Part shown: piece by piece, positions 7,475 to 64,000 of the stretch
Position numbering within the stretch: the first letter of the stretch is position 1
Layout of the letters: each line of letters opens with the position of its first letter
Virus genome (UHGV): UHGV-1370141
DNA: 64,000 bases
Reading direction: 5' to 3' (one strand)
Source: a virus
Made by a program: the position numbers and the translations under genes
The notes under the pieces: model-generated
Database searches by the model: none
What the model saw: the letters and a program-made list of their open reading frames with translations, nothing else
What the model was told of the DNA's origin: nothing

Positions 7475-8515
7475 TTATACTGCGACGGGGGCCGCAATAT
7501 GTGGATGAGCTTGATAACCAACTAATTCGAAGTCTTCGTATTTGTAATCGAAGATAGAATCCGGTTTACGTTTGATAACCAGTTTAGGTAACGGGTAAGG
7601 CTCACGTGTAAGTTGAAGTTTTGCTTGTTCCAGATGGTTAGAATACAGATGAACGTCTACACCACTATAAACCAACTCGTCTGGAACCATGTTCAGTTGT
7701 TGAGCAACGATGTATGTTAACAACGCGTACGAAGCGATGTTGAACGGTAAACCTAAGAATACGTCGTTTGATCGCATCAGGAAGAAACACGAAAGCTTAC
7801 GACGCGGAATACCTTCACGATCTAAAGTTTCATGAAGTCGTTCTTCATCATCAATATCTTCGTGTTTAATAAGCGGTGCGCTCGCAAATTTTTCCGGTTC
7901 GTTTACTTCGTACCATTCCAGTCTCTCAAGCAGTGACATTTCCGTTGTGTAGAATTGGAAGTAGTTGTGACACGGGTTAAGTGCCATATCGTCCAAGTCA
8001 CTTACGTTCCAGGCACTAACAATAATACGGCGGGAGTCAGGGTCTTCGAGAAGTTGTTGGATAACTTTGCTGATCTGGTCGTGAGATTTGCGATAAATAA
8101 CGATACTTTCTTCAGGGTTGTCCTTTGCAATAGTACCAACGTAGCGATAGCCTCGTTCTCTCAATACGTCTTTACTACGCTCGTCCCAAAGATAAACCAG
8201 TTTGGTATCCATCCATTCCCGCCACTGGTGTCCGTAGACAGGTCCTAATTCCCCTTCCGCATTCGCCCACTCGTTCCAGATTCTTACCCCATTCTCTTGC
8301 AGGTACTTCACGTTAGTGTCACCGTTCAAGAACCATAACAGTTCATGAATGATACTTTTCAGGTGAACCTTTTTCGTAGTAACTAATGGGAAACCTTCTT
8401 TCAGGTCAAAACGTAGTTGGCGACCAAATACAGAAAGTGTCCCTACACCTGTACGGTCTTTCTTAACAACGCCGTTATCCAGAATGTCTTGCATTAACGC
8501 TAAATACTGTTTCAT
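7475..8515 (-). CDS. thyA: Thymidylate synthase (ThyA type) with two insertions
   Basis: Near-identical blocks to E. coli ThyA: [87 protein letters not shown]. 346 aa versus 264 aa. Confidence 0.93.
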
Positions 8516-10295: not shown

Positions 10296-10336
10296 GTAAA
10301 AAATAAAAATACCCTACTCCCAGACAGGAGTAGGGT
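10296..10336 (-). terminator. Rho-independent terminator (CCCTACTCC-cagaca-GGAGTAGGG plus T-tract on - strand)
   Basis: Inverted repeat followed, on the - strand, by a U-run (plus-strand AAAAATAAAAAT); immediately after the stop of 10342..11001. Confidence 0.5.
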
Positions 10337-14498: not shown

Positions 14499-14570
14499 AA
14501 TTCACTCCGAAAGAATGTCTCACGTAAATAATATCTGTCTGACTTCTTTTTGAAAATGAGGTGGTTTTAA

Positions 14571-19373: not shown

Positions 19374-19410
19374 CCCCTAGACCACAAGGTCTAGGGGTAA
19401 TCTTTATTTT
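19374..19410 (+). terminator. Rho-independent terminator (CCCCTAGACC-acaa-GGTCTAGGGG plus T-tract)
   Basis: Perfect 10 bp stem followed by TAATCTTTATTTT, 14 nt after the stop of 18605..19360. Confidence 0.55.
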
Positions 19411-21262: not shown

Positions 21263-21294
21263 TTAAAATAAAGCAACCCTAGCCGAAGCTAGGG
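21263..21294 (-). terminator. Rho-independent terminator (CCCTAGC-cgaa-GCTAGGG; U-run on - strand)
   Basis: Inverted repeat with plus-strand A-run on its 5' side, immediately after the stop of 21301..21789. Confidence 0.45.
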
Positions 21295-23094: not shown

Positions 23095-23131
23095 GGTGAC
23101 TAACTCCGAGGGTTCTACACCTGAATAATAT

Positions 23132-23803
23132 CTATCTAAGAAAGTTTTTAGCGAAATAGGGATCGATGTGAAACGCTTTCACGAGAGAATCATAGCCGGA
23201 GTGAATCTGATCGGAGTTGAGCAGGAAACGGTCTAGATCGTGAGGCAATATCCAGGCGTCACCTTGTTTGAAAATAGTGTGACCTACAGTTTCTGGAGAA
23301 AATCGAATTTCTTCCGGGAAGGGATACGTTTGCTTCAAATCGAGGTCGGTGGGTTTTAAGGTAACTAAACGAACGGGTCGTTTACTGGCCACCTCCTTAA
23401 CGAATTGGTTACGATCAAACCAGATAATCTTTTCAGGGTAGCTTTCCAGCTCACTCCAGACCTTGTTAATCACCAGATTAAAGTTCTGTTGCAGTTCCCC
23501 GGATTGGTTAGCGTAACCTAAGCACTCTTCTACCAAAGCTGGATTACCGTAAGTGTTAGTAATAACCTGTGCAATCACACGTTGTGGGAAACAATCTTTC
23601 GGTATATCACAACCTGCATTGTACAATGCAATGATTTCCCACAATGAGCGTAAGGCAAGTTCAAGTGACACTTCCCCGAGTGTATAGTGGTCGTCAGAAT
23701 AGGGGGCTTTAAAGCCCCACTGCTGACGCGCAATTGCTGAAAAGCGTATCTGGATATAACTCGGTGCCATCGATAACGCTTGACTAAAAACAATCAGCAT
23801 CAA
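23132..23803 (-). CDS. Hypothetical protein (223 aa)
   Basis: ORF with 4-nt overlap with the upstream gene. Confidence 0.4.
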   Translation of the reverse strand: MMLIVFSQALSMAPSYIQIRFSAIARQQWGFKAPYSDDHYTLGEVSLELALRSLWEIIALYNAGCDIPKDCFPQRVIAQVITNTYGNPALVEECLGYANQSGELQQNFNLVINKVWSELESYPEKIIWFDRNQFVKEVASKRPVRLVTLKPTDLDLKQTYPFPEEIRFSPETVGHTIFKQGDAWILPHDLDRFLLNSDQIHSGYDSLVKAFHIDPYFAKNFLR

Positions 23804-26594: not shown

Positions 26595-27098
26595 TTACTC
26601 CTTAGGTGAGGATAACGTCTTTATGATCTCCTGACGGAAACTGTTAGCGTTTTGACTACCAACAGGTCGCGCCGAAGCTTCTTTGCGTTGTTCTGGTGTT
26701 GAAGCTGGGCTAACAGGAGTTTCTGGTTTCTTAGGTGTTAAATCTTTGGTAGAGTTGTCTTCTTTTACCGTGCTGTACCCACTTTCATATGGCGGTTTCT
26801 GGCCGAGGCAAATAAAGAGCTTGTCGTATAATCTACCATTATCATCTTTCAGTTTGTCACGATCTTGCTTCATCTCTTGGTAAGATTGCGACATGTATTG
26901 ATCATGAGATTGTACGGTAACGAGCTTGTGAAACTGCACTACGTACGCATAGGAGACGAAAGCCGAGTAGGATAACAAGACCGTGATGATTAAAGTCATT
27001 ATCTTGTTTGCTCTTGATACGTTTTCTCCTTCTCCTGGTTTAAATGCTTCCATCAACATCTGAATGAAGAACGGAAGCACTTTAAGAAATGAACCCAT
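26595..27098 (-). CDS. Membrane protein (N-terminal TM helix, charged C-terminal tail; 167 aa)
   Basis: Hydrophobic segment KIMTLIITVLLSYSAFVSYAYVV followed by a K/D/E-rich region; 4 nt upstream of the secreted-protein gene. Confidence 0.45.
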   Translation of the reverse strand: MGSFLKVLPFFIQMLMEAFKPGEGENVSRANKIMTLIITVLLSYSAFVSYAYVVQFHKLVTVQSHDQYMSQSYQEMKQDRDKLKDDNGRLYDKLFICLGQKPPYESGYSTVKEDNSTKDLTPKKPETPVSPASTPEQRKEASARPVGSQNANSFRQEIIKTLSSPKE

Positions 27099-27123
27099 TG
27101 CTCACCTCGGAGTATTTTTAATT

Positions 27124-28497
27124 ATGTTAGACTTACAAGGTTTTATTCAGATACCGGCTCTGTTTGACAATCAGGACGGCGTCACCGCTCCGGTAGGTGA
27201 GCTGTCTGATCTGACCCTCTCGTACGCGAAGAGTAAACAGACGTTTACTAAATCCAATCTGCAAGTGCAGTTGGTGACATTTACGTCTAAACGAGAAAAA
27301 CAGACGGTTGTTGTTCCAGCCGAGTTTTCTGATCATATTCTAACCGTTTCTCAATGGATTTACCAGCAAGCCATCTTGGGGAATCTGAGAAATGACGAAC
27401 TTGAATTCCAGCGCCTATTATTAGGTCAATTCCAAACAACCATTTCCGGTGTCCAGTCCGGTGCGATGATCCAGACGAACAGTAATTGGTTCCCACGTTG
27501 GGTGAGCTGGAAATATGAAGCAACTGCAGATCAAGTACAAGATGACACTGATGTAGATAACCAAATCATAGTTTGGTTCTCGGATGAAGACTTCGACCAG
27601 GACTACACGGGTTTTGAAATCGAAGTACAGATGCCGATTGAGCCAATCGACACATTCTTGGCCACAAAGTCAGTCGTTGAAAAAGCGATGGAAGGGTTTA
27701 ACCTTACCGAACACCATAAGAAAATCAACGAGTTAATGGCAGGGTTCCCGTATACTGCCATCCAAACTAACTACTACACCTGGCATGACCAAGAAAACTA
27801 CGAGTCAACACTGGTTATTCCAATGTCGGTTATCATTTACGGACGTGCAGGAAAAAACCCAACGAAAATAAAGCAAGCGTTGCGTGAACATATTCTTGCA
27901 AACTCCAGCTTTACGGTTCCGATCGGGGTGAAGGTATTCCCTGAGATCTTTACCACTACGAAATTCACAATGGTTCCGGGGTGGAAAATCCGTGGTATAC
28001 CGAATGAGGAAGACGTGGCGGCTCTCTATTCCCCCATCCTTCCATATGATTTCTGGGTCAAAGCCATTACAAAGTTTGGGGAATGGTCTGATCAGTCTGT
28101 TGCGGAAAGAAATAGTAAAACGGTAAGCAAACCGACGACGGATGTTACCGATTTACCGACCGTGTACAAATCACTGAACATGGTGGTTATCAGTGGTCCT
28201 GAAAACGACACTCGTAAGAATACCTTACACGAAACGTTACCAGACTACGCACTGATTGCAACAACAAACCCAGACATTGCACGAATGTCGAAATCCACCA
28301 CAGAATGGTTAGCGTTGTTCTTCCAGGCGTTAATAGCAGCGGAAGAATACCATCCGTATCAGACCAGTCTGGATGTCGTGAAACTCGTTGATGAAGCCGA
28401 TCCAGATAACTATTTCTGGGTGTTCGAATACGATAACGTCGAATATCGCATACTGTCTCGTAAATCGAAATGGTACACTGAAATCGACGAGGAGTAA
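27124..28497 (+). CDS. Hypothetical protein (about 458 aa)
   Basis: Start placed at the internal Met (MLDLQGF) so it does not overlap the divergent gene start at 27098; start uncertain. Confidence 0.45.
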   Translation: MLDLQGFIQIPALFDNQDGVTAPVGELSDLTLSYAKSKQTFTKSNLQVQLVTFTSKREKQTVVVPAEFSDHILTVSQWIYQQAILGNLRNDELEFQRLLLGQFQTTISGVQSGAMIQTNSNWFPRWVSWKYEATADQVQDDTDVDNQIIVWFSDEDFDQDYTGFEIEVQMPIEPIDTFLATKSVVEKAMEGFNLTEHHKKINELMAGFPYTAIQTNYYTWHDQENYESTLVIPMSVIIYGRAGKNPTKIKQALREHILANSSFTVPIGVKVFPEIFTTTKFTMVPGWKIRGIPNEEDVAALYSPILPYDFWVKAITKFGEWSDQSVAERNSKTVSKPTTDVTDLPTVYKSLNMVVISGPENDTRKNTLHETLPDYALIATTNPDIARMSKSTTEWLALFFQALIAAEEYHPYQTSLDVVKLVDEADPDNYFWVFEYDNVEYRILSRKSKWYTEIDEE

Positions 28498-28500
28498 TGA

Positions 28501-29124
28501 ATGGCTACGCGTTTACCTCTTTTGGTTCCCGTTAACACAACGGGTTTATTTAAGGTAAAAACACCGTTTACGTTAGCCGAAACGGTTATCTTCACGGTGG
28601 AGGCATCACGTACCTTCCCAGATTTAGTACGTCAGAATATTGATGTTTACAACGAGTATTACAAGCCCGTTGGGTTGGAGCGAGAAGAATATCTTGCTGA
28701 TGCTACCGTTAACGCGTCTATTCTTACGTTTAAATCACGCGATGGTCAAGTCGTTTATATCCCCGACACTTACGTAGAATCGTGCCCCGGTTTATCGGGA
28801 ATCGCGTACCAGCGTAATGTGATGGTGGTGGACTTATCGTTTGTACCGGATTATGTAGATGTGTCGGTGATGACTAAAGACGTTTCGGATATTCTTACCC
28901 GTACGTTGGGTATCGACCCGAAAGTCGAAATCACGACCATGGAGTATGAAGGGAAAGTGACGGAGGAGCAACACCTGCAAATGGAAGCGGCTCGGAAAAG
29001 GAAAATTCGAGAGGCTATTCCGTTGTCAGAACAGGTTACTTCGTTGACAAACGAAAACAAAAAATTAAAAGAGTTAAACAACCAGATGTTAGAGATTCTT
29101 AAAGCTAACGGGTTAGTTAACTAA
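28501..29124 (+). CDS. Hypothetical protein with C-terminal coiled coil (207 aa)
   Basis: ORF starts 4 nt after the preceding stop; C-terminus QVTSLTNENKKLKELNNQMLEILKANG; followed by a terminator. Confidence 0.45.
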   Translation: MATRLPLLVPVNTTGLFKVKTPFTLAETVIFTVEASRTFPDLVRQNIDVYNEYYKPVGLEREEYLADATVNASILTFKSRDGQVVYIPDTYVESCPGLSGIAYQRNVMVVDLSFVPDYVDVSVMTKDVSDILTRTLGIDPKVEITTMEYEGKVTEEQHLQMEAARKRKIREAIPLSEQVTSLTNENKKLKELNNQMLEILKANGLVN

Positions 29125-29170
29125 AAGAAATTACCCTACTCCTTTTCGGGAGTAGGGTAGCTTTTATTTT
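29121..29170. terminator. Bidirectional rho-independent terminator (ACCCTACTCC-ttttcg-GGAGTAGGGT with T-tract)
   Basis: Perfect 10 bp stem followed by AGCTTTTATTTT; between convergent genes ending 29124 (+) and 29169 (-). Confidence 0.6.
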
Positions 29171-29717
29171 AAATGTCGACTTCTAGTTTACGGTAATCAA
29201 TGACGCCTTGAGCAATCATAGCAGCAACATCGTTCCAAGTACGAAAAATGAAGTAAACGGTATCCCCGTTTAAAAAGATATTGGATTCTTTATCCGGGAA
29301 ATCATTTTCGCTGAGGTAGTAGTAGGGTTTGTCGAATGGGAAGTCACGCTCATCAGAGGAACCAAGTACCGCATAACGATTGCCACAGTCGAACAGAATC
29401 TTCCAACCTGATACTTCACTATTAACATCAACACGATCGACGATTTCAACAGTAATCGGAGAATGGTCAAGAAAACTGATCGTGATTCCCTCGCAATACC
29501 GTTTGAATCGCCAAATATCTGTGGGTACAATTTCAGACGCTGCTATAAGGGAATAAAGTTGTGTTGTGGTGATCTTTTTGTAAACGCTATTGCCGTCTCC
29601 CAAACGGTCAAATAAGAAATTAGCCAGGAAATTTATATCCTTTAAACGTGTACGGAAAACAGAACCACGGCGAATACCATAAGCCAGGTGGGTTAAATAT
29701 TCAGATGATGGAAACAT
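29169..29717 (-). CDS. Hypothetical protein (182 aa), paralogue of 29780..30712
   Basis: Shared blocks with the neighbouring gene: N-terminal MFPSSEYL/MTFPSEVI and NIFLNGDTVYFIFRTW / NIGLNGGVVYFILSNW. Confidence 0.45.
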   Translation of the reverse strand: MFPSSEYLTHLAYGIRRGSVFRTRLKDINFLANFLFDRLGDGNSVYKKITTTQLYSLIAASEIVPTDIWRFKRYCEGITISFLDHSPITVEIVDRVDVNSEVSGWKILFDCGNRYAVLGSSDERDFPFDKPYYYLSENDFPDKESNIFLNGDTVYFIFRTWNDVAAMIAQGVIDYRKLEVDI

Positions 29718-29730
29718 TTTAATACTCCTA

Positions 29731-29770
29731 AGATGGAAAAAAGAATTAACCCTACTCCCGGAGGAGTAGG
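29731..29770 (-). terminator. Rho-independent terminator (CCCTACTCC-cgga-GGAGTAGGG; U-run on - strand)
   Basis: Same stem sequence as at 29134 and 10311; plus-strand A-run on 5' side. Confidence 0.5.
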
Positions 29771-29779
29771 GGACTTAAA

Positions 29780-30712
29780 TTACTTTTTGGCTTGACCCAG
29801 GTTTTCAAGAACCAGTTCACGAATGTACTTTTGAGTACGTTTCTTCGGCGGTAAAGCCATAAGGGTGTCAACAATTTCCTGACCGCCGATAACCTTGCTG
29901 ACGAGTTGTTGAACTTGGAAGAGTTCCGCTTCTTCGTCACTGATCTCATTAGCTTGGTCTTTCTGACACAGCGCTTCTACCAGGTCAGCTACGGATATTT
30001 CTTTTTCGTCACCAGGGAAATCCAGGTTTAACGATTCGAAAACATCACGTTTAACGAGCACAGATTTCAGATCATCGTAGTCTTCGCAAACGGCGACTTC
30101 TGTACCAGGGACGGTTTCTTCTTCGTCTTGATCTTCATTCTCAGCGGAGAGGTAATTTACTTCTGTTGCGTGGAACGTTGCGTCAGCTTTTCTCAGGACG
30201 TAGCTCACATGCGCCCAGTTGCTCAGGATGAAGTAGACGACGCCCCCATTTAATCCGATATTGCCTTGGCGAAGCTCGAGAGCAATTTCCAGGCGGCGCG
30301 AAATCTGCCCCAAGTCAAAGAAAGACTCGTCGCGTGCCGCAACAACTTCGTACTGATTCACCCCTTGTTCTACAACAACGAACCAGTTATCCGGGAGAGG
30401 ATATGGGTTGGGCATGAGAGAATGTTCGATCCCTACGCTTGGGTCAACAGTAACGGATGTATGCCGCATTCCCATGGAGAAGTTGAACATATCCCCATTT
30501 TGAACCGCAATTGCATTGTCGATTGGAAGAATTTTGGTGGTACGATCGATAGAGAAAATCACTTCTTGCGTAATTGAAGACTGATTACTGCCTAGGAAAT
30601 GGTTGCGCAGAAAGGCAGCGGTTGCACCTACGCTGGTTTGCAGCATATGGTAGTTATAACGACGACGTAGAGTGTTAGCCAGTTCGTAAATTACTTCAGA
30701 TGGAAAAGTCAT
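29780..30712 (-). CDS. Hypothetical protein (310 aa) with acidic C-terminal half, paralogue of 29169..29717
   Basis: See paralogue; acidic stretch ENEDQDEEETVPGTEVAVCEDYDDL. Confidence 0.45.
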   Translation of the reverse strand: MTFPSEVIYELANTLRRRYNYHMLQTSVGATAAFLRNHFLGSNQSSITQEVIFSIDRTTKILPIDNAIAVQNGDMFNFSMGMRHTSVTVDPSVGIEHSLMPNPYPLPDNWFVVVEQGVNQYEVVAARDESFFDLGQISRRLEIALELRQGNIGLNGGVVYFILSNWAHVSYVLRKADATFHATEVNYLSAENEDQDEEETVPGTEVAVCEDYDDLKSVLVKRDVFESLNLDFPGDEKEISVADLVEALCQKDQANEISDEEAELFQVQQLVSKVIGGQEIVDTLMALPPKKRTQKYIRELVLENLGQAKK

Positions 30713-30765
30713 TTTAATAGTCCTCTTTAGGTTTGTTCAAATCAACTAAGGGTTTTGTAAAAAAG

Positions 30766-31245
30766 TTAAAAGAGTGGGAGGTTACGCCATTGACCTACGG
30801 AATAGAAAGCCTTCGGATGTTTACGAATATAGTCCTTCGCTTCTTTCGGTAACCAGCGTTGACCTGCACGTTTCTGCTGGGCAACAATAACAGCCAGCAG
30901 CAAATAAGGATTCTTTGACCCAGGGAATTTTGCATTCGTTTCTAGCGCAATATCCAACATCGATTCCCATCCCAGTGTTTTAGACTGAGCGGGTAAACGG
31001 TCTTCGATATACATCAACCAGTTCATGATTTCTCTGGGTTTAAATGGACAGGTGTAGTTCGCCCAGCTTATCATGAAAAACTTAATAATCTTTGCAAATA
31101 CCCACAACGGTATAGCTACGAATACACAGAAAATCACCATTTGTTTCGTAGGGGCGTTTACGAACGTCACTAACAGTAGAACGGTGATTACCTCTAATAC
31201 CACGAACCAAAAGCGGGTTGGGTAACGCCAGATAAACTTCAACAT
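30766..31245 (-). CDS. Membrane protein with two N-terminal TM helices (159 aa)
   Basis: FWFVVLEVITVLLLVTFV and VIFCVFVAIPLWVFAKIIKFF hydrophobic helices, then a basic C-terminal region; two genes from the secreted SLT lysin candidate. Confidence 0.45.
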   Translation of the reverse strand: MLKFIWRYPTRFWFVVLEVITVLLLVTFVNAPTKQMVIFCVFVAIPLWVFAKIIKFFMISWANYTCPFKPREIMNWLMYIEDRLPAQSKTLGWESMLDIALETNAKFPGSKNPYLLLAVIVAQQKRAGQRWLPKEAKDYIRKHPKAFYSVGQWRNLPLF

Positions 31246-31264: not shown

Positions 31265-31302
31265 AATAAATAAAAGTACCCCTAATCCGATTGGATTAGG
31301 GG
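31265..31302 (-). terminator. Rho-independent terminator (CCCCTAATCC-gatt-GGATTAGGGG; U-run on - strand)
   Basis: Perfect 10 bp stem with plus-strand A-run on 5' side, right after the stop of 31309..31818. Confidence 0.5.
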
Positions 31303-31308
31303 CAAGTA

Positions 31309-32501: not shown

Positions 32502-32601
32502 ACTAGTTCTCCAGTTGGATTTATACATTTCCGTGTTCCGTAGAACGAAATCACGGCGCGGACAGCTGGAACTCCTTTGTTGTGTGCCCTAATGATAATA
32601 T

Positions 32602-33126
32602 CTATTTAAAAAGGTTTGGAATTAAAGGTTTTGCTTCTTGGTAAAGCGTATCGGGTAAATAGAAACGGTAATGTTGTCTCCTCGGTACGAGTTTCTTTTC
32701 GATAAACAAAAAGATTTGTTGACGTTCAGCTTTTGTCAACCAACCGTTAGCCATCCCTAACGGCGGTAAAGCCACCCCACCCTCTAAGTTTTCTGCGGCA
32801 TCTGCCAACGCGGTGATACCCGCGATAACATAAGAAACCTGGGATTTCAGTTTCCAATGTGTTTTAGTTGGTAAGAGAATGCAGTTTTCCTCGGGATAAA
32901 CATACACATTCCCTATTCGTATTTCGTTAGCGAAGCAACGTTCTCGGTAGTCCTGATAAAGCCCAGGATAGCGTTCTCTGCACGCTAAAGCGATACCCCG
33001 ACCCATTGCCCCTACACAATTTATCGTAACGACCTTGAAGCGCTCAGGGGCGTTAAACAGGTCGTTGTCAATATCCGATTCTGGAAGTATCGTTAGCATA
33101 ACGGTCTTACCGAGTGAGGTAAGCAT
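32602..33126 (-). CDS. Macro-domain-like protein (ADP-ribose binding/hydrolase candidate)
   Basis: VVTINCVGAMGRGIALAC and GVALPPLGMANG resemble macro-domain blocks (VVNAAN...GGGGV...G and AFPAISTGVYG) as recalled for E. coli YmdB; start may be an internal Met. Confidence 0.4.
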   Translation of the reverse strand: MLTSLGKTVMLTILPESDIDNDLFNAPERFKVVTINCVGAMGRGIALACRERYPGLYQDYRERCFANEIRIGNVYVYPEENCILLPTKTHWKLKSQVSYVIAGITALADAAENLEGGVALPPLGMANGWLTKAERQQIFLFIEKKLVPRRQHYRFYLPDTLYQEAKPLIPNLFK

Positions 33127-40338: not shown

Positions 40339-40800
40339 TTATTTGTTAGGACGGGTGTGTCCACAGTTCTGGAAGAAAGTTTCAGACAGACGTTCGCCTT
40401 CTACGGTAAAGTTAGCGGCTTCGTTTCCGTTGATATTCACACTGAAAGTTTTGGCATTGCCGATAGCATTAACGAAAGCCACCCAAGCGAGTTCTGCTTT
40501 GTCACTACCATCCACCGTAGGGATGTTGTAAGTTTTGCCATTTACGACAATATCCAGCGTGTTGTCTTCAGCGTTAGTTGCACCTACAGGTTCCCCGTAA
40601 TACCAAACCATGCGACCGTAAAATTTGCGATTCGCGGTTTCAGTGTCACAGTTGATAGACAGTCCGTTTCCGGTGGTGTCTTCGATTTCGTAAACAGCTT
40701 GACCTGGGTTCTGTAGTTGTTCCCAACTATTGATTGCAGCGTGTGCAGTATTGAATCCGATTGCGAAAAGGCCGATTAAAAAGGAAGTGAAGATTTTCAT
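40339..40800 (-). CDS. Small secreted protein 5 of 5 (153 aa)
   Basis: Signal-peptide-like MKIFTSFLIGLFAIGFNTAHA. Confidence 0.45.
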   Translation of the reverse strand: MKIFTSFLIGLFAIGFNTAHAAINSWEQLQNPGQAVYEIEDTTGNGLSINCDTETANRKFYGRMVWYYGEPVGATNAEDNTLDIVVNGKTYNIPTVDGSDKAELAWVAFVNAIGNAKTFSVNINGNEAANFTVEGERLSETFFQNCGHTRPNK

Positions 40801-41520: not shown

Positions 41521-42294
41521 TTAGTTATTGAGATTTACATCTGCGATAAACAACAATTGTTTGCCGTGTTGCTGTACTTCTTTCCAACCTAATTTCATAG
41601 CAGTATCAACAACATCAACCATGCTGTAACGGGACATCAAAGATTCTGATTTTGTTCCTGACATTAAGTAAAGTGGCTCATTAGGGCTACGGTCACGTGC
41701 GTCAGGAAGTTCACGTACGACTGCCGAGCCTTCGGGTACGGTAACAAGATGAATCACGGTAAATGGCCTCTTGTGCGTTAAATAGATACGAAATCCAACG
41801 TGTTCAGATTCATGAAAGATTTTCCTCACAACCACATCTTTCAGTGTTGTTTGAACATCAGCCCCAGGCAATATCATGGATTCGCGTGAAACGAAACAAC
41901 GACTATTTTCAATTGTGGAGAAATAATTACGTAGCGGTAAACTGGCGTTATTATCGCGCAGTCTTTTGCTTAAACGGTCGTAATCCATTTCTTTAACTTC
42001 TTCTAACCATGCGTAGGCACGTTCAACGTAGTACAGACCAACAGCGCGATAAGTTAATACTTTGCCTGTGGCCACTTGCCAGAGCTTAACGGTTAGCGTA
42101 TCAGGTTTATATCGCCGATATTCTCCGCGTGTATAAGTGATACGTTGATAAAGACCCACGTCTTCTGTTGGCGCGGATTCGACCGATTGTAATTGCAGCG
42201 TTCGATGAAATCTATCGTCTAGCAACAATGAAGCCAGCGAACCTTTAACCATATACGGTTCAGATTTAAAGAGGTCGTCTAAATGAATTTTCAT
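41521..42294 (-). CDS. Member 1 of a four-gene paralogue family with conserved C-terminal module (GWKEV...GKQLLFIADV)
   Basis: 257-aa ORF; the C-terminal roughly 30 aa is shared with the three neighbouring genes. Confidence 0.5.
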   Translation of the reverse strand: MKIHLDDLFKSEPYMVKGSLASLLLDDRFHRTLQLQSVESAPTEDVGLYQRITYTRGEYRRYKPDTLTVKLWQVATGKVLTYRAVGLYYVERAYAWLEEVKEMDYDRLSKRLRDNNASLPLRNYFSTIENSRCFVSRESMILPGADVQTTLKDVVVRKIFHESEHVGFRIYLTHKRPFTVIHLVTVPEGSAVVRELPDARDRSPNEPLYLMSGTKSESLMSRYSMVDVVDTAMKLGWKEVQQHGKQLLFIADVNLNN

Positions 42295-42361
42295 TTCTAT
42301 TTCCTTCTTAACAAAAGCCGCGACTAAAGCGCGGCAGTTAGAGAAAGTGTATTTTCACTTA

Positions 42362-43541: not shown

Positions 43542-44081
43542 TTAAACATCAAAAGCTAAGAACAACAGTTGCTGACCGAGTTTGCGCACAGTATGCCAGC
43601 CGTGCGCTTTTGCTGTTTCTACTAACGTTTCCCAATCGTCAACGTTACAACCGTCTTTTTTCAGTTTTGTAAGTAGTGTCTCTGCTTCTTTATCTGTCAA
43701 CAATAATCCTGGGTTACTTAACGTAGACGTAAGTGGGTTAGGGAAATATGCGTAGCGTCTTGCGAAAGTAAAGTTCACGAGATAACGTGCTTTCCCCGTG
43801 TCTAGAAGCGTAACAACATCCACGCCGCCGTCGTAGGACGCGCTCGTCACTTTCCATCCTGTACCGGAAAACAGTTGACTGAATAATTTGGTAAAGATAT
43901 CCCCGGAACCGCGATGATAAAGCACAGCATCTTCGTTGATTTTTTCTATTTCAATACCAGTGATCGTTGTACCCGGTTGAATAACGTTAGACAATATACT
44001 GTACGGGCTTTCAAAACGATGTTTACCCACACCCAGGTTAACAAACTTAATAGCTTGTTGTTTCATTTCGATACTAACCAT
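43542..44081 (-). CDS. Member 3 of the paralogue family (C-terminus GWHTVRKLGQQLLFLAFDV)
   Basis: 179-aa ORF; shared C-terminal module. Confidence 0.5.
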   Translation of the reverse strand: MVSIEMKQQAIKFVNLGVGKHRFESPYSILSNVIQPGTTITGIEIEKINEDAVLYHRGSGDIFTKLFSQLFSGTGWKVTSASYDGGVDVVTLLDTGKARYLVNFTFARRYAYFPNPLTSTLSNPGLLLTDKEAETLLTKLKKDGCNVDDWETLVETAKAHGWHTVRKLGQQLLFLAFDV

Positions 44082-44108
44082 GATATTTTCTCCTTTAGGT
44101 TTTTTTAC

Positions 44109-44846
44109 TTACGCGGTTTTAATTAACAGCAGATAGTCCTTCGTAATCTCAGCACAACCCCACCCTCTCATCGCGGCGATTTTACGAAGATCAATTTTCT
44201 CGTGATATTTCAATAAGGGATCGTCCGGGTTAATTTCAACCAGGTGTGTGGCTTTAGAAATCGTTTCCACATCTGGTATTTGTTTTGCTAAGTCCGATGC
44301 AATTAGTTCAATAACGCGGTATCCGTTTAACACAGAAACATAAATGCGTAAACCATATAGCGTGCCCTCGTCTTCTAATGGACAAAGATCGATGCCGGGT
44401 CCAAGCAGTGATAACTCGACGTTATCGGGAAGGTTTTCTGCATTTCGGAGTAACCCTATCCCATTTCTAAACAGAGGGAAGTAAGAGAATAGTGGTGGTA
44501 AAGCCCAACCATTCCCAATAAGCACATCAGCGATACTCGTAGGTGTGTTCGCAAGAAGACGAATGTGGTCAGCCACAACTTCAAGTTCGGCATCACTGAT
44601 CAACTTATAGATTAACATGACACTGGTTTCGGTATTAATAACAAAGAAGACGCGGTTGGCGTAACTGCCTATCACGTATTCGTCAATCATACAGTCGATA
44701 ACGTCACTGTCTGGATAATCTTCAGGTTTAATTGTTCCAGCATCGATTAACTTAGCAGGTTGCGATTGTTTTAATAGTTCTTTAACCACCGTAGAAGAAA
44801 GTTCTAAACTGGTGTTGGTAAAGATATCGTCTAACAATTCTCTCAT
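44109..44846 (-). CDS. Member 4 (divergent) of the paralogue family (C-terminus GWGCAEITKDYLLLIKTA)
   Basis: Start set to internal Met (MRELLDD) preceded by AGGAGA SD; weaker match to the C-terminal module. Confidence 0.45.
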   Translation of the reverse strand: MRELLDDIFTNTSLELSSTVVKELLKQSQPAKLIDAGTIKPEDYPDSDVIDCMIDEYVIGSYANRVFFVINTETSVMLIYKLISDAELEVVADHIRLLANTPTSIADVLIGNGWALPPLFSYFPLFRNGIGLLRNAENLPDNVELSLLGPGIDLCPLEDEGTLYGLRIYVSVLNGYRVIELIASDLAKQIPDVETISKATHLVEINPDDPLLKYHEKIDLRKIAAMRGWGCAEITKDYLLLIKTA

Positions 44847-45231
44847 GGGGTTTATTCTCCTAAAAAGGGATAAGGAAGTCACTACGTTCCTCTGGGAAGA
44901 GTATGTCGGTATACTACGTATACCTCCGCTATTTATATCCGTATACATAATGCCCCCTACCCCCTACCGGTATCCCGAGTAGCAGAATAAAGGGACAATC
45001 TGTAAATTTTAAGTAATACTATGATTACCGTGGTAGATAAGGTGAATAGTGACGGAAGAGTCTCACTACCTCTTCGATACCGTCTTTCTGTTCAGCGAAC
45101 ATGGTAGCCTCCACTATTGTTAGTATCCGTTTCGAAAAGAAACGTGCCCATAGGGGTTGAAGTGCGAGTTCAACCCCTATTCACTTAAGTAAAATATATC
45201 TGAATCTATTTCCGATCTAAGGAACGACCTA

Positions 45232-46396: not shown

Positions 46397-46606
46397 ATGG
46401 CTATTAAAGAATTCTCTTCTGCTGAACACATTCCTGAAGAGTTCAAGAAAATTGGTAACGTAAGCGCTTTCGGTGATACCGTAGACGACGTTACTGCTAA
46501 GCTGGCTGTCGAAGCTGAAAAGATCGGCGGTGAAGCGTTTAAAGTTATCGGTATTTCCGGTAACAACAAACTGCACGGTAACGCGATTGTCTACAAAAAA
46601 GACTAA
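46397..46606 (+). CDS. DUF1471 (YdgH/BhsA/McbA)-like small protein without signal peptide
   Basis: FGDTVDDVTAKLAVEAEKIGGEAFKVIGISGNNKLHGNAIVYKK resembles, from memory, the E. coli BhsA/YcfR core (...GAKSFRITSVTGPNTLHGTAVIYK); GGAGAG SD; flanked by hairpins on both sides. Confidence 0.5.
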   Translation: MAIKEFSSAEHIPEEFKKIGNVSAFGDTVDDVTAKLAVEAEKIGGEAFKVIGISGNNKLHGNAIVYKKD

Positions 46607-50900: not shown

Positions 50901-52311
50901 TAACGACTTAATTGACGTTACGGTTAAAGACAATATCCTGGTGTCACTTCCTGCTTCCACGTATTTCGTTGGCGGCGAAACGTACGACGTGCCGTTGATG
51001 ACGGTTAACGTTACCGAACGTTTCCCGAACCCGAAAACAGTAATTTACGCAGGGATTTTTGTTGATATCGTTGACAACAAAGCGAAGTACATTATCCACG
51101 ACAGCTATAACCAAGCTGAGACGGATACCATGACGCGTGTGGGAAGACTCGTTGTTAATGATCTTTCCGAAGTGGATGTAGTGGAGTTGCGTAACGTGAC
51201 ACGGTTAGGCGATTTCCGTGAGCTGAAAGACCACGTCGCCAATGACAACGCACACATTCACCGCTCCGCGTCACGTGCAGTGCTGGGGTTAAGCAATTTA
51301 ACAGTAGGTGCGCCCTGCTGGGCTTCTGGACTTCAAGCGGTTGTGCGTGGCGAGGCAGATTGGCGCTATGTGGTTGGTGGTGGATATAAAGCACTCGATG
51401 GTGTGAAATACGACCAGCTTGCGTCGAAGTGGGTGTTTGATGCGAAAGGGGTAAGTGATAATGTTCACGGGTTTATCCACAACCTGTTCCCAGTATTTAA
51501 CAATGCGGGGATGCGAGTCAGTTGGGAAACCGAAAGCAACGCAAAAACCGGTACGGTGCTAGAAACCATCCTGGGTTGCTGGAAAAACACCGATGGCGAG
51601 TTTATGCGGTTGTCGTTACTTATCACCCGTGGTTACCGGTTAACTGACAGTAACGGTGAATATTGTTACGCGGGGTTCGGTTTGAACTTCAGTAACGGGA
51701 AATCGGTAGTGTTAGGTTTCACGCCAACGAAACGTGTTACAGCTGCACCATGGAGCACATTACAACCTGACGTAACGTTTAGTCACACCCGTGGTGCAAA
51801 CAACGCAATAACGTTTAATGCAACACTGACCTTAGCTGGTACTGCGTATACCATTGTGGTGTATTTGTCTGCGACGGATAAATACGTAAGCTGTACAGCA
51901 GCAGGGGGAACTACGCAGAAAATCTCACTGAGTGACCGTTTAACCGGGTTCAACCTCGCACCTATCGTTAACGATCCGTATACCCCTATTTACTACGGAT
52001 TAGGGGGACTTTATGAGGACGAAGTGCGTGCTAATATCCGTTCTACGGCAGACAGCATAATCGGGAACAAACTCTACGGTACGCTGTTGGATTATATCAG
52101 CAACTACTCCTCGTTAAATCGTGTACGCGTCGTGGAATTGGCCGGGACAAGCTCAGACCCTGAAACGCTTAATGCGCTAGTGGCGACTGAGTTTAATAAC
52201 AACCTGGCGGATTACGCTGCGTTACCGATACCTCCTTATCTTAACAAGGAGCGCGTAATGTCGTTTATCGACACCAACAATTTAGTGCAGGCGGTAATCA
52301 TTCGCGATTAA
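47986..52311 (+). CDS. Tail fibre/tailspike-like receptor-binding protein 1 (1441 aa)
   Basis: AGGAG SD; N-terminal anchor motif PAHAPFFTTSLVV...LGDDYVIT shared with the next three genes; very large T/N/G/V-rich beta-type protein. Confidence 0.6.
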   Translation: MAVVLDPHFKEPGNKITGEAVAVIGTKYRMLVPAHAPFFTTSLVVKSGGKILTLGDDYVITHPYETGMLRTAYLVHGMIWIVNDKYKSNFTVDYHAVGCGEATQEQITAERELNKDKYPSACQWDTVIGDVYFPPVDIQFDWENWKGELELMQTIAGLGDSLGNVVNRVDPIARNTLDIEHRANGTVSTSEQYATYDNKGGYTYNTAKRRFSVTYKTTTLNEYSLSMKYRIPAIFPNMGSINPNEQIDWMLCYANGGASILRLQLKQRKISLRLTVALGSGSTDYDYTLINGLTDDELKGELTFSVVRQPGNGVYVIEVTTNKQSMDYTFNVDTPPDEFSAGYSKTDVAKWLKYKTNVNLNWWAAENDYAQFLALPGAPEADVSNDVYQLIVKYHQLVEQLYRNAPAHEHVTRKDNPHSDTWGPIRALELNGIASDAALTYGKTKRQLTDYVNAKYPTQATLTTQRKLLRESASKNVNGTITALPGFTSFTTEVDPVSMSKYVSRQFSEYYVSNGIGYHGALRYAGTKNGFSCYFNGVPADLQDIDFIVTGTRVAGDNSAIGVAQMRFYENPGTESGKYVELEGSLSGDRLSIQVSLGGYGVGTDPQVRYISKAPDPVVPAGDFTLRFQMKRTGNLFDVIVTVNGKTYSARVNFVNMDAELEALENRYHFKSFINNVADRVSIQSAHNRNYVTIKKAPDVVDERRLGAQFVVDPKSIKFIGQGSTDVHAGNNPVTLQAGDNQLVLYPDDRGLLWRGKKLLDPTTVAPYLPGNTAGGTGLFYGASTATVELTGSGIKASPFVATFILPVAEDVTTLACWQLTDEFGTAENLAATPALIEKLDAEFTGKLVAAKSYINDMQLTSSITIDKITFGLGNVANTPDLDLPISVAQQTELDKYSPKVHQHPSSVFGVENADTTKRGLIKFGLEVDDTTLALDGSVVMAQTSQIENLENTVGGVDSGARVDIIRFGKSGNDLIDVTVKDNILVSLPASTYFVGGETYDVPLMTVNVTERFPNPKTVIYAGIFVDIVDNKAKYIIHDSYNQAETDTMTRVGRLVVNDLSEVDVVELRNVTRLGDFRELKDHVANDNAHIHRSASRAVLGLSNLTVGAPCWASGLQAVVRGEADWRYVVGGGYKALDGVKYDQLASKWVFDAKGVSDNVHGFIHNLFPVFNNAGMRVSWETESNAKTGTVLETILGCWKNTDGEFMRLSLLITRGYRLTDSNGEYCYAGFGLNFSNGKSVVLGFTPTKRVTAAPWSTLQPDVTFSHTRGANNAITFNATLTLAGTAYTIVVYLSATDKYVSCTAAGGTTQKISLSDRLTGFNLAPIVNDPYTPIYYGLGGLYEDEVRANIRSTADSIIGNKLYGTLLDYISNYSSLNRVRVVELAGTSSDPETLNALVATEFNNNLADYAALPIPPYLNKERVMSFIDTNNLVQAVIIRD

Positions 52312-63090: not shown

Positions 63091-63483
63091 ATGGCGATTA
63101 GTGTTAAAAACGTACGCGACCGAATCACCAACGTAGAGAATCAGATGGCGACTGGGCCACGCATAGATCCTCAGGTTGCGTCAAAGGCGCACAATGCCGC
63201 AGACTCTTTTTCAGGTTGGACGCCAGGTCGTCTAGACTGTGGCGGTAGCTGTAGCTGGACGTGCTCGAACGGCTGCACACATGGTTGTACGAGTTGTTCA
63301 GGTACGTGTACATCTGTGTGTGTAGGAAGTTGTTCGTCTGCTTGCGGTAATCAGTGTACCGGATGTTCCGCTACATGCTCTGGTGGGTGCACTGGTTGTA
63401 GCGCTACATGCAGCGGTAGATGTTCCGGGCGTTGTAGCTCGGGTTGTAGTGGCGCGTGTGCGTCTTGTTCAGGGCCGACTTAA
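63091..63483 (+). CDS. Leader plus Cys-rich repeat peptide (130 aa); candidate RiPP precursor
   Basis: AAGGA SD; first about 45 aa Cys-free, then about 25 Cys at nearly regular C-x2-3-C spacing separated by S/G/T (CGGSCSWTCSNGCTHGCTSCSGTCTSVC...). Immediately upstream of a radical-SAM ORF. Confidence 0.55.
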   Translation: MAISVKNVRDRITNVENQMATGPRIDPQVASKAHNAADSFSGWTPGRLDCGGSCSWTCSNGCTHGCTSCSGTCTSVCVGSCSSACGNQCTGCSATCSGGCTGCSATCSGRCSGRCSSGCSGACASCSGPT

Positions 63484-63507
63484 TTTAACAGATAGGTATT
63501 ATCTCTG

Positions 63508-64000
63508 ATGATAGAATTAACCACACCGACAGTATCCGATCAATTGTATTCTGAAGCAAGAACGTTAAATGTTATTACTACATCCAAATGTAATCTGGAC
63601 TGTAGTTTCTGCGGCGGAGCCTATTACATGCATAGAGAGGATACAACCGCAGAAGTACAAAAGAAAAGTATTATCGAGGCGCTGGAAAATAACCCAACCA
63701 TTACAAACATTCAATGGTCAGGGGGTGAACCATTACTCGCTTCGCGTAAAATTGATACCCTTATAGAAGAGATAAGGGAGAAGTATCCTCGTTGCGATCA
63801 TTACCTCTATACCAACGGTTTAAAGATGCGTAAAACGCATCTCCCGTTGTTAAAGGGTTTCGATAGTATCTTTTTTAGCATGGACGGATTCAAAGAATCA
63901 GAGCGCCCATTCATGCGGATTATCGAAGAAAAACAATACGAGGTTTTGGAGACAATTTACGAGTTGAAAAATATTCGTACTTGGGCAGTCTTGACGCGAG
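63508..64000 (+). CDS. Radical SAM enzyme (N-terminal about 164 aa; 3' end beyond window)
   Basis: Manual translation from ATG near 63508: MIELTTPTVSDQLYSEARTLNVITTSKCNLDCSFCGG (CxxxCxxC cluster) ... NIQWSGGEPLL (SAM glycine-rich motif) ... YTNG ... FFSMDG. No stop before 64000. Not in the ORF track because it is open-ended. Confidence 0.7.
   Translation, partial: MIELTTPTVSDQLYSEARTLNVITTSKCNLDCSFCGGAYYMHREDTTAEVQKKSIIEALENNPTITNIQWSGGEPLLASRKIDTLIEEIREKYPRCDHYLYTNGLKMRKTHLPLLKGFDSIFFSMDGFKESERPFMRIIEEKQYEVLETIYELKNIRTWAVLTR

What the first reader, a model, noticed from the sequence alone, without database searches (positions are those of the whole stretch)
29169..30712. Adjacent paralogue pair (182 and 310 aa) with conserved N-terminal and LNGxxVYFI blocks
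The two neighbouring - strand genes share an N-terminal block (MFPSSEYLTHLAYGIRR / MTFPSEVIYELANTLRRR) and a central block (NIFLNGDTVYFIFRTWNDVA / NIGLNGGVVYFILSNWAHVS). The longer one has an added acidic C-terminal region. They are separated by a terminator, so they may be expressed differentially. Function unknown.
Basis: seen in the sequence. Interest (0 to 1): 0.35.

Follow-up and report, generated by a model that had tools for sequence, protein, structure and literature searches.

The report
Swappable-domain jumbo-phage protein plus truncated duplicate
Two neighbouring genes of a 220-kb nucleus-forming ("Bapsvirus"-type) phage are true paralogues from an uncharacterised family: the long one has a front domain that related phages swap as a cassette and a near-constant tail domain, and the short one is a dispensable copy of the front domain only, which suggests a host- or competitor-interaction protein whose function is still untested.

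Summary
ORFs 29169-29717(-) (182 aa) and 29780-30712(-) (310 aa) are real paralogues (BLASTP E=1e-8; profile-profile 96%), and each is followed by a stable hairpin plus T-run.

The window comes from a Chimalliviridae jumbo phage of the proposed genus "Bapsvirus". The long gene is the positional orthologue of Salmonella phage SPN3US gp201 (phrog_11818, function unknown). SPN3US gp201 is not a virion protein and not a core gene.

The family has three parts:
- an N-terminal alpha/beta domain with no match to a solved fold;
- an acidic linker of variable length;
- a helical C-domain ending in an LPxKKRT motif whose KRT is invariant.

This full architecture is ancestral. The 182-aa gene is a Bapsvirus-specific copy of the N-domain only. 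It is under purifying selection but absent from one natural genome, and it is bounded by direct repeats of the terminator hairpin.

The new point is that codons ~8-210 of the long gene form a discrete allelic cassette. Allele classes are down to 45% identical in protein, have saturated dS, and cut across three backbone lineages with recurring breakpoints. The C-domain stays at least 87% identical.

Only hydrophobic core residues are conserved, which argues for a binding role rather than catalysis. The function is inferred, not shown: a polymorphic adaptor for host or competitor interaction.

The parts
29780..30712 (-). Long paralogue, 310 aa. It is a member of phrog_11818 and the positional orthologue of SPN3US gp201.
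   Evidence: ORF and translation. phrog_11818 E=6.5e-30. Syntenic with phiEaH2 gp122, ChrisDB gp222, SPAsTU_239, SPLA1a_200, Asesino gp220 and SPN3US_0201. Between allele classes dN/dS is about 0.15-0.3 in the N-domain; it is 0.02-0.3 in the C-domain.
30155..30712 (-). N-terminal alpha/beta domain (aa 1-186), shared with the short paralogue. It consists of three helices, a ~8-strand sheet and a helix.
30082..30689 (-). Exchangeable allelic cassette (codons ~8-210, the N-domain plus the first part of the acidic linker).
   Evidence: The block is 55-70% identical in nucleotides to two genomes whose flanks are 95-100% identical. The same breakpoints (~30690-30705 and ~30078-30085) recur in independent within-lineage comparisons. 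Allele classes cut across the backbone lineages. It is the longest strongly divergent aligned block in the 64-kb window when compared with NZ_CP173450.
29780..30081 (-). Constant part: the end of the acidic linker plus the helical C-terminal domain (aa ~211-310) and the stop codon.
   Evidence: At least 87% protein identity among 17 cluster representatives, against a minimum of 45% for the N-domain. dN/dS 0.02-0.3. Median dS between backbone lineages is 0.28, against 0.7-2.3 for the flanking genes. The AF2 model is helical but of low confidence here.
29834..29854 (-). C-terminal basic motif LPPKKRT (family consensus ALPxKKRTxK).
   Evidence: Translation. K, R and T are invariant in the alignment of members from other genera, and the motif is visible in all long members.
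29750..29771 (-). Terminator-like hairpin CCCTACTCC-N4-GGAGTAGGG with a T-run, lying between the two paralogues.
   Evidence: Scan. Fold -18.3 kcal/mol, z=-3.4. Same stem as the hairpin downstream of the short gene (D5).
29169..29717 (-). Short paralogue, 182 aa. It is an N-domain-only, Bapsvirus-specific duplicate and is dispensable in nature.
   Evidence: ORF. Only 6 clusters at 90% identity, all from Bapsvirus-type contigs. It is the only short form among the hits of an exhaustive search. dN/dS 0.05-0.66. A deep second allele exists (188 aa, 67% nt) in L013. The gene is absent from L017.
29131..29160 (.). Bidirectional terminator hairpin (same CCCTACTCC/GGAGTAGGG stem) between the short gene and the convergent DUF7194 gene. 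Together with the 29750-29771 hairpin it forms the direct repeat that bounds the short-gene unit.
   Evidence: Scan hits on both strands. Folds -21.0 and -23.4 kcal/mol. L017 carries a single hybrid hairpin exactly where the other genomes have hairpin, short gene, hairpin.
30713..30765 (-). Conserved intergenic leader. With the first ~8 codons of the long gene it forms the 5' anchor of the cassette.
   Evidence: Mean pairwise identity is 0.97 in this bin across 10 genomes, higher than in the surrounding coding sequence. There is no terminator between the upstream membrane-protein gene and the long gene.
30766..31245 (-). Context: a 159-aa protein with two predicted N-terminal transmembrane helices (phrog_20030), apparently co-transcribed with the long paralogue. 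The preceding terminator lies at 31277-31304.
   Evidence: ORF. phrog_20030 E=4.5e-10. Terminator. A membrane-protein gene sits in the same position in ChrisDB (gp221), SPAsTU and SPN3US (gp200). The transmembrane assignment comes from reading the sequence.

Best explanation
SHOWN.
- The two genes are paralogues in a small protein family confined to the SPN3US-like branch of nucleus-forming jumbo phages. Family members include SPN3US gp201 and Asesino gp220, and PHROGs catalogues the family as phrog_11818.
- The ancestral protein has three modules: an N-terminal alpha/beta domain of about 185 aa, a flexible acidic linker that tolerates insertions, and a helical C-domain of about 100 aa ending in a basic LPxKKRT motif.
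- In the phage lineage of this window, a tandem duplication left a second copy that holds the N-domain only. That copy has its own ribosome-binding site and its own copy of the terminator hairpin.
- The N-domain of the long gene exists as several deeply diverged alleles. Homologous recombination moves them between phage lineages, using conserved anchors at codon ~8 and codon ~210. The C-domain and the short gene are kept nearly constant.

INFERRED.
- The long protein is a non-enzymatic adaptor.
- Its constant C-domain docks onto a conserved partner, either a phage machine or a conserved host component.
- Its polymorphic N-domain binds a target that varies between host strains or between co-infecting phages, for example a defence protein. 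That would explain why several old alleles are maintained and shuffled.
- The short protein is a free N-domain that binds a ligand without docking. It may add a second specificity, or it may titrate the long protein or its ligand.
- The short gene probably reaches lower expression, because its transcripts must read through the intervening terminator.
For: Paralogy and membership.

Restricted distribution: only 10 representatives at E<=1e-3 among 1.84 billion proteins. tblastn hits occur only in Erwinia, Salmonella, Escherichia and Proteus jumbo phages.

Ancestral two-domain architecture at a conserved position.

Not a virion protein and not a core gene in SPN3US: the supplementary tables of PMC5105663 list 193, then 202 and 203, and omit 201.

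Binding role rather than catalysis: across the family only P63 and W110 are invariant, and A12, L35, V159 and W166 are nearly invariant. No polar residue is conserved. There are no Pfam, NCBIfam or PADLOC hits.

Flexible tether: the linker carries a 34-aa insertion in P0009 and an inserted middle domain of roughly 75-100 aa in the SPN3US and Erskinevirus members.

Cassette exchange:
- Backbones at 95-100% identity contrast with N-domains at 55-70%.
- Allele classes are shared between backbone lineages that differ by 12-30%.
- Breakpoints recur.
- dS is saturated between classes while dN/dS stays at 0.15-0.3, so these are old functional alleles, not decay.
- Between backbone lineages, dS of the C-domain and the short gene is 4-8 times lower than that of the flanking genes.

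Alleles co-circulate in the same host genera.

The short gene is functional but dispensable.

Terminators and the absence of a promoter-like element in front of the short gene.
Against: - No partner, ligand, localisation or phenotype is known for any family member. The functional part is inference from architecture and evolutionary pattern alone.
- The C-domain model has low confidence (pLDDT 28-59), so calling it a docking domain is an assumption.
- Site-specific positive selection was not tested. Pairwise dN/dS stays below 1 everywhere, so the diversity could reflect import from unsampled relatives rather than balancing selection.
- The long-N allele and the short-gene allele are not coupled: L005 and L013 share the long allele but differ in the short one. 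The two proteins therefore need not act on the same target.
- Low dS in the C-domain and the short gene could in principle reflect nucleotide-level constraint rather than recent exchange.
Confidence: 0.35

Rival explanations
1. The locus is a phage-versus-phage incompatibility or superinfection-exclusion determinant. The polymorphic N-domain would recognise a related co-infecting phage (self versus non-self), and the constant C-domain would couple this to an effector or to the neighbouring membrane protein. Allele diversity would be kept by frequency-dependent selection among phages that share hosts.
For: - Deep alleles are shared across lineages and co-occur in the same host genera.
- The long gene is co-transcribed with a 2-TM membrane protein, which is a typical class for exclusion proteins.
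- These phages persist in host cultures, where repeated encounters are likely (PMC12768965).
Against: The protein has no membrane segment of its own. It does not resemble any known exclusion protein. The Erskinevirus members lack the upstream membrane-protein gene. No experiment bears on this.
Confidence: 0.17
2. The long protein is a regulator of phage development, for example of transcription, lysis timing or the carrier state. The short protein would be a truncated, dominant-negative partner that heterodimerises through the conserved beta-sheet core and titrates the long one.
For: - The block best conserved between the paralogues and among alleles is the sheet core (aa 111-170), which could serve as an allele-independent dimer interface.
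- The gene lies downstream of an SLT endolysin-like gene and a membrane protein.
- The tail is basic.
- An attenuating terminator would set a long:short ratio.
Against: - No HTH or other DNA-binding domain was found.
- The protein is strongly acidic (pI 4.6).
- No operator- or iteron-like repeats lie in or near the locus.
- A regulator of conserved phage functions is not expected to have alleles only 45% identical within near-identical genomes.
- The short gene is missing from L017 with no other change in the long gene's architecture.
Confidence: 0.13
3. The pair has no interaction role. The short gene would be a decaying duplicate, and the variation in the N-domain would be relaxed constraint on a dispensable protein.
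For: The short gene is absent from one natural genome. The family is not core and no function is known.
Against: - dN/dS is well below 1 for both genes and both domains.
- The reading frames are intact in 9 of 10 genomes, including a 67%-identical allele of nearly the same length.
- The divergent block has sharp, recurring borders, and identical alleles occur in distant backbones. That is exchange, not drift.
- The start codon, ribosome-binding site and terminator are conserved.
Confidence: 0.05
4. The proteins are packaged or ejected virion proteins, or tail-assembly chaperones, on the model of the hyperplastic internal-protein loci of T4-like phages. The conserved N-terminal peptide (M-x-FP-S-E...) would be a targeting signal.
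For: - The first ~11 residues are conserved between alleles and between the paralogues, also at the DNA level.
- The locus abuts the tail genes that are homologues of SPN3US gp202 and gp203.
- S/A/G-x-E tripeptides occur in the linker (seen by reading the sequence).
Against: SPN3US gp201 is not among the proteins detected in purified virions, whereas gp202 and gp203 are. The genes are convergent with the tail genes, not in the same operon. The N-terminal conservation is also explained by its role as the recombination anchor and as helix 1 of the fold.
Confidence: 0.05

Closest known systems
SPN3US gp201 family (phrog_11818): SPN3US_0201, Asesino gp220, phiEaH2 gp122, ChrisDB gp222, Wellington A0A345BLN1. 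All are annotated 'hypothetical protein'.
   Same: The long protein shares the N-domain, the acidic linker and the C-domain with the LPxKKRT motif. It also occupies the same position: downstream of the macro-domain gene, the SLT gene and phrog_8114, and convergent with the DUF7194 (phiKZ gp161-like) gene and a tail gene.
   Different: Only the phage lineage of this window has the additional N-domain-only duplicate. Its linker lacks the middle domain of roughly 75-100 aa found in the SPN3US and Erskinevirus members. The cassette-type allelism was seen here among Bapsvirus genomes and has not been described for the family.
Hyperplastic internal-protein (IP) loci of T4-like phages (from my own knowledge of the literature, not tested here).
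   Same: A small accessory locus holds several polymorphic, paralogous genes that share a conserved N-terminal leader. Genes are exchanged or gained and lost between close relatives, and the locus is linked to counter-defence (IPI* against GmrSD).
   Different: IPs are packaged into the capsid and cleaved at the leader by the prohead protease. The SPN3US orthologue was not detected in virions, there is no sequence or fold similarity, and here the constant part is a C-terminal domain.
Phage morons and mosaic modules exchanged at conserved boundary sequences (a general concept from lambdoid and other phages; from my own knowledge).
   Same: The short gene plus one terminator copy is a discrete unit, present or absent between otherwise identical genomes (L013 versus L017), and is bounded by direct repeats. 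The N-domain cassette is exchanged at recurring conserved borders.
   Different: The short gene is a paralogue of its neighbour rather than foreign DNA, and no promoter of its own was found. The exchanged unit in the long gene is a protein domain, not a whole gene.

Membership tests
phrog_11818 / SPN3US gp201-like proteins | Significant match to the family profile | tested here: met
   The long protein matches at E=6.5e-30 over residues 3-307. The short protein has no hit at E<=0.01, but its family profile matches the N-domain of members from other genera at 96% probability, E=2.7e-9. 18 of 20 aligned members, which must include at least two of the four short ones, hit phrog_11818 at E<=0.1.
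phrog_11818 / SPN3US gp201-like proteins | Conserved genomic position: after SLT, phrog_8114 and (in some genera) a membrane-protein gene, convergent with the DUF7194 and tail genes | tested here: met
   The same gene order is found in phiEaH2, ChrisDB, SPAsTU, SPLA1a, Asesino and SPN3US.
phrog_11818 / SPN3US gp201-like proteins | C-terminal helical domain ending in LPxKKRT | tested here: met
   Present in the long protein at 29834-29854. Absent from the short protein, which is therefore a partial, N-domain-only member.
Toxin-antitoxin or effector-immunity gene pair | Two different, cognate proteins whose variants co-vary and which are kept together | tested here: not met
   The two proteins are paralogues. 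The long-N allele and the short allele are uncoupled, as L005/L006 versus L013 show. The long gene occurs without the short one in L017 and in all other genera.
T4-type packaged internal proteins | Presence in the virion, with a cleaved N-terminal targeting leader | tested here: not met
   The virion mass-spectrometry table for SPN3US lists gp193, gp202 and gp203 but not gp201 (supplement of PMC5105663). This is indirect: it concerns the orthologue, not this phage.
Diversity-generating retroelement target | A template repeat near the variable region and adenine-specific substitutions | tested here: not met
   No second DNA copy of the variable block lies in the 2.5 kb around the locus, and no further paralogue lies in the 64-kb window. 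The alleles differ by indels and by saturated synonymous change of all kinds. The window was not scanned for a reverse transcriptase.
Known protein folds or domains (for example SUKH/SMI1-KNR4 immunity proteins, or HTH regulators) | Significant sequence or structure match | tested here: not met
Phage moron (applies to the short gene) | Autonomous unit with its own promoter and terminator, present or absent between relatives | tested here: inconclusive
   The terminator and the presence/absence polymorphism are met. No promoter-like element lies in the ~25 nt between the upstream hairpin and the start codon, but the promoters of this phage are not defined.

The most novel reading that the evidence does not exclude
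The gp201 family could be a polymorphic recognition system of nucleus-forming jumbo phages. The constant, KKRT-tipped C-domain would anchor the protein to a conserved phage structure such as the nuclear shell or its import machinery. The swappable N-domain would determine which host defence factor, or which rival phage, is bound or excluded. The free N-domain paralogue would act as a soluble decoy. Long-lived alleles shuffled between lineages would then be the phage-side footprint of an arms race that still operates although the genome is shielded inside the phage nucleus.
Probability: 0.12. Interest if true: 0.65.

Novelty: new variant of a known kind. Interest (0 to 1): 0.4.

Why it matters
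Nucleus-forming jumbo phages are thought to escape most DNA-targeting defences, so loci that still show arms-race-type diversity point to the interactions that remain important for them.

This locus offers a compact system: one swappable domain, one constant domain and a natural domain-only copy. It occurs in phages recovered together with their host genomes in hundreds of isolate assemblies. Allele-to-host associations can therefore be tested by computation, and the cultured relative SPN3US has an orthologue (gp201) that can be manipulated.

If the diversity turns out to be neutral mosaicism, this is simply one more uncharacterised accessory family.

Tried and rejected
- **Host-genus specificity of alleles: rejected.** Each major allele cluster contains members from both Salmonella and E. 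coli or Shigella assemblies, and one also from Enterobacter.
- **Cognate pair (toxin-antitoxin or effector-immunity): rejected.** The proteins are paralogues, their alleles are uncoupled, and the long gene occurs alone.
- **Pseudogene or decaying duplicate: rejected.** dN/dS is below 1 and the frames are intact.
- **DGR-type hypermutation: rejected.** There is no template copy, and the differences include indels and saturated dS.
- **Partition, incompatibility or repressor role with nearby binding sites: no support.** No iteron- or operator-like repeats were found. A 12-nt inverted repeat at 30149-30160 / 30686-30697 flanks the cassette, but from the protein sequences it does not appear to be conserved in other alleles, so I treat it as chance.
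- **More paralogues in the window: none found**.
- **Literature: nothing found.** No paper held mentions SPN3US gp201 or Asesino gp220. The SPN3US infection-proteome paper could not be retrieved under the PMC id I tried.
- **Sigma-70-like promoter upstream of the long gene: discounted.** Its -10 element overlaps the start codon.
Full report
**1. The observation**

The window has two adjacent ATG-initiated ORFs on the - strand: 29169-29717 (182 aa) and 29780-30712 (310 aa). Each is preceded by a ribosome-binding site with the same spacing (GAGGACTATTAAAATG and AGGAGTATTAAAATG).

BLASTP aligns residues 2-181 of the short protein with 3-186 of the long one: 39.3 bits, E=1e-8 for the single comparison, 25% identity.

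The relationship holds under stricter tests:
- A profile of the short family matches a profile made only of long-family members from other phage genera with 96% probability, E=2.7e-9, over 162 columns.
- The AlphaFold model of the short protein (pLDDT 76, pTM 0.75) consists of three N-terminal helices, a sheet of about eight strands and a helix. It superposes on independently predicted N-domains of Erwinia-phage homologues at TM 0.64-0.71, although sequence identity is only 13-18%.

Residues 187-310 of the long protein have no counterpart in the short one. This region is acidic (pI 4.2), except for a basic last 26 residues (pI 10.3).

The genes are separated by a 9-bp hairpin followed by a T-run (-18.3 kcal/mol). 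A 13-bp (11-bp on the opposite strand) bidirectional hairpin follows the short gene (-21.0 and -23.4 kcal/mol).

**2. Where the window comes from**

Only the neighbouring tail genes match catalogued phages at the DNA level: Erwinia phages phiEaH2 and Stratton, 74% identity. The DUF7194 gene next to the pair is the homologue of phiKZ ORF161 and is found in 254 jumbo-phage records.

Near-identical DNA (median 96.7%) is present as a circular 221,873-bp "plasmid" record of an E. coli urine isolate, NZ_CP173450.1. It also occurs in ~222-kb contigs of Salmonella, Shigella and E. coli assemblies.

This fits the proposed genus "Bapsvirus" (Chimalliviridae). That genus was described from ~220-kb lytic jumbo-phage genomes found inside bacterial isolate assemblies (PMC12768965).

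**3. The family**

The long protein matches phrog_11818, of unknown function (E=6.5e-30). Neither protein has a hit in Pfam, NCBIfam or PADLOC.

tblastn and synteny show a single gene of this family at the same position in three other genera: after the macro-domain gene, the SLT transglycosylase gene and phrog_8114, and convergent with DUF7194 and a tail gene.
- Seoulvirus: SPN3US_0201 (gp201, 377 aa) and SPAsTU_239.
- Erskinevirus: phiEaH2 gp122 and Asesino gp220.
- Machinavirus: ChrisDB gp222.

These are documented.

An exhaustive profile search of 1.84 billion representative proteins found only 10 hits at E<=1e-3. All were full-length family members, apart from the representative of the short form and one fragment.

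The alignment of the whole family shows three parts:
- A conserved N-terminal helix (M-x-FP-x-x-V-I-x-x-L-A-x-x-L-R) leads into an alpha/beta domain. In that domain only hydrophobic or structural residues are conserved: P63 and W110 are invariant, and A12, L35, V159 and W166 are nearly so.
- An acidic linker of variable length follows. It carries a 34-aa insertion in P0009 and an extra middle domain of roughly 75-100 aa in the SPN3US and Erskinevirus members.
- A helical C-domain ends in ALPxKKRTxK. K, R and T are invariant among the members from other genera. In the window this motif lies at 29834-29854.

The two-domain form is therefore ancestral. The 182-aa gene is a truncated tandem duplicate found only in Bapsvirus-type contigs. 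The 64-kb window holds no further paralogue.

**4. No known fold or function**

- A family profile against all PDB sequences gave only a chance 40-residue match to a formin (E=0.026).
- Foldseek against BFVD returned only family members.
- The AlphaFold-database libraries were not available.
- The C-domain is predicted helical but with low confidence.
- No paper held mentions SPN3US gp201 or Asesino gp220.
- In the supplementary tables of the SPN3US virion study, the mass-spectrometry list runs 193, 202, 203, and the table of shared genes has no row 201. gp201 is therefore neither a detected virion protein nor a core gene.

**5. The main new finding: an allelic cassette**

I compared the window with two genomes whose flanks are 95-100% identical. 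Window positions ~30082-30689 (codons ~8-210 of the long gene) drop to 55-70% nucleotide identity. Over the whole 64 kb this is the longest strongly divergent aligned block.

I then fetched ten genomes in total. The flanking genes define three backbone lineages:
- Lineage A: the window, L005, L006 and L019.
- Lineage B: L012, L016 and L018.
- Lineage C: L013, L015 and L017.

These lineages are 70-88% identical to each other. The N-domain alleles cut across them:
- The window's allele is 91-95% identical to those of L015 (lineage C), L016 (lineage B) and L019 (lineage A).
- The allele of L005 and L006 (lineage A) is 98% identical to that of L013 (lineage C).

In independent within-lineage comparisons the divergent block has the same borders, ~30690-30705 and ~30078-30085 (about 30019 in lineage C). 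The most conserved bins of the whole region are exactly the borders of the two-gene module: 0.97 at 30734 and 0.99 at 29121.

Among 17 cluster representatives the N-domain falls to 45% protein identity, while the C-domain stays at or above 87%. The hot spots are residues 21-30, 91-110 (a low-confidence loop) and 181-200. The sheet core, residues 111-170, is conserved.

Between allele classes dS is saturated (1.7-2.9) while dN/dS is 0.15-0.3. These are old, functional alleles, not decay and not a burst of positive selection.

Between backbone lineages the median dS is 0.28 for the C-domain and 0.27 for the short gene, against 0.7-2.3 for the flanking genes. The 3' half of the module has therefore spread recently across lineages.

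Allele clusters are not specific to a host genus.

**6. The short gene as a unit**

The short gene is under purifying selection (dN/dS 0.05-0.66). It exists as two deep alleles: 88-97% identity among most genomes, and a 188-aa form at 67% in L013.

It is absent from L017, whose flanks are 99-100% identical to L013. In L017 a single hybrid hairpin stands where the other genomes have hairpin, short gene, hairpin. The gene plus one terminator copy is thus bounded by direct repeats with the stem CCCTACTCC/GGAGTAGGG. This is consistent with loss or gain by recombination between the hairpins.

The long-N allele and the short allele are not coupled: L005 and L013 share the long allele but not the short one.

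**7. Expression context (inferred)**

- A terminator precedes the 159-aa membrane-protein gene, at 31277-31304.
- No terminator separates that gene from the long gene.
- A hairpin follows the long gene, and only ~25 nt with a ribosome-binding site separate it from the short gene.
- The nearest upstream promoter-like motif I could recognise is TAGATATTAT at 32595-32604, a motif that recurs in front of other genes on the - strand.

The likely arrangement is stepwise attenuation, with the short gene expressed by read-through. This has not been tested.

**8. Interpretation**

Shown:
- paralogy;
- family membership;
- the ancestral modular architecture;
- the lineage-specific N-domain-only duplicate;
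- domain-level cassette exchange with recurring breakpoints;
- purifying selection on all parts;
- dispensability of the short gene in nature.

Inferred (about 0.35): the long protein is a non-enzymatic adaptor. Its constant C-domain docks to a conserved partner, and its polymorphic N-domain binds a target that varies among host strains or competing phages. The short protein is a free N-domain that adds or titrates a specificity.

Rivals:
- a phage-versus-phage exclusion or incompatibility determinant (about 0.17);
- a developmental regulator with a dominant-negative truncated partner (about 0.13);
- neutral decay (about 0.05);
- a packaged protein or assembly chaperone (about 0.05).

The remaining probability is for functions not yet imagined.

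**9. Novelty and verdict**

The family is already catalogued as an unannotated PHROG, and the genes are annotated "hypothetical" in public records. The paralogue pair itself is an ordinary kind of finding.

What is new is the N-domain-only duplicate and the evidence that one domain of the long gene is a shuffled, long-lived allelic cassette in a nucleus-forming jumbo phage. I rate it a new variant of a known kind, of moderate interest (0.4). It is a good candidate for a host- or competitor-interaction locus, and it can be tested computationally because these phages are archived together with their host genomes.

Noticed in passing
window 10312-10335, 19375-19396, 21277-21294, 29134-29157, 29750-29771, 31280-31301 (also 51984-52005): A family of hairpins of the form CCCTA...TAGGG occurs 7 times in the window, against 0.3 expected by chance. 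Three share the full stem CCCTACTCC/GGAGTAGGG. The hairpin at 31280 differs by a compensatory pair (CCCTAATCC/GGATTAGGG). At least five of the seven lie between genes. They look like a reused terminator element that could also serve as short recombination homology.
   Followed up: partly
window 32595-32604, 23125-23134, 14528-14537 (- strand); a related CAGATATATATTAC lies upstream of the gene at 40339-40800: The AT-rich motif (T/C)AGATATTAT recurs about 30-75 nt upstream of several - strand genes and may be a phage promoter element. The count with one mismatch allowed is not significant on its own (6 found against 3.5 expected). The positions upstream of genes are what make it suggestive.
   Followed up: partly
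whole window; NZ_CP173450.1 (L006, L020, L021): The phage genome is deposited as a circular 221,873-bp 'plasmid' of an E. coli urine isolate, and as ~222-kb contigs in Salmonella, Shigella and E. coli assemblies. One protein member is also labelled Enterobacter ludwigii. This matches the 'Bapsvirus' assembly-associated jumbo phages of PMC12768965.
   Followed up: yes
window 8101-8250, 42001-42300, 43800-44850, 45001-45150, 54151-54450, 63150-64000: These are other islands where the window diverges from the otherwise 96.7%-identical NZ_CP173450.1. They include 59% identity within the gene annotated as thymidylate synthase, an unaligned stretch at 44400-44850, and no alignment beyond ~63340. None was examined.
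   Followed up: no
window 30766-31245 (-): A 159-aa protein with two N-terminal hydrophobic helices (phrog_20030) appears to be co-transcribed with the long paralogue. Its C-terminal region resembles that of ChrisDB gp221 (shared LPKEA...P.AF), and small membrane proteins occupy the same slot in SPN3US (gp200) and SPAsTU. The Erskinevirus relatives lack it. It might be a functional partner, or a holin-like protein next to the SLT gene.
   Followed up: partly
L019 3001-4035 (protein P0009, 344 aa): A natural variant of the long protein carries a 34-aa insertion in the acidic linker. SPN3US and Erskinevirus orthologues have a whole extra middle domain of roughly 75-100 aa at the same place. The linker therefore tolerates large insertions.
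   Followed up: partly
window 46397-46606 (+): A 69-aa ORF corresponds by coordinates to a gene that RefSeq annotates as 'DUF1471 domain-containing protein' in the near-identical E. coli record. DUF1471 is a family of enterobacterial stress and biofilm proteins. Here the ORF has no obvious signal peptide, which is unusual cargo for a lytic jumbo phage. I did not confirm the domain with my own search.
   Followed up: no
window 27064-28497 (+) versus 26595-27098 (-): The mechanical ORF of the tail or virion gene (477 aa) overlaps the divergent upstream gene by 35 nt. Gene calls in related contigs give 457 aa, so the true start is probably about 20 codons further in.
   Followed up: no
window 30149-30160 and 30686-30697: A 12-nt inverted repeat (11 of 12 complementary) brackets the variable cassette almost exactly. 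From the protein sequences of other alleles it does not appear to be conserved, and repeats of this size are common by chance in 2.5 kb.
   Followed up: partly
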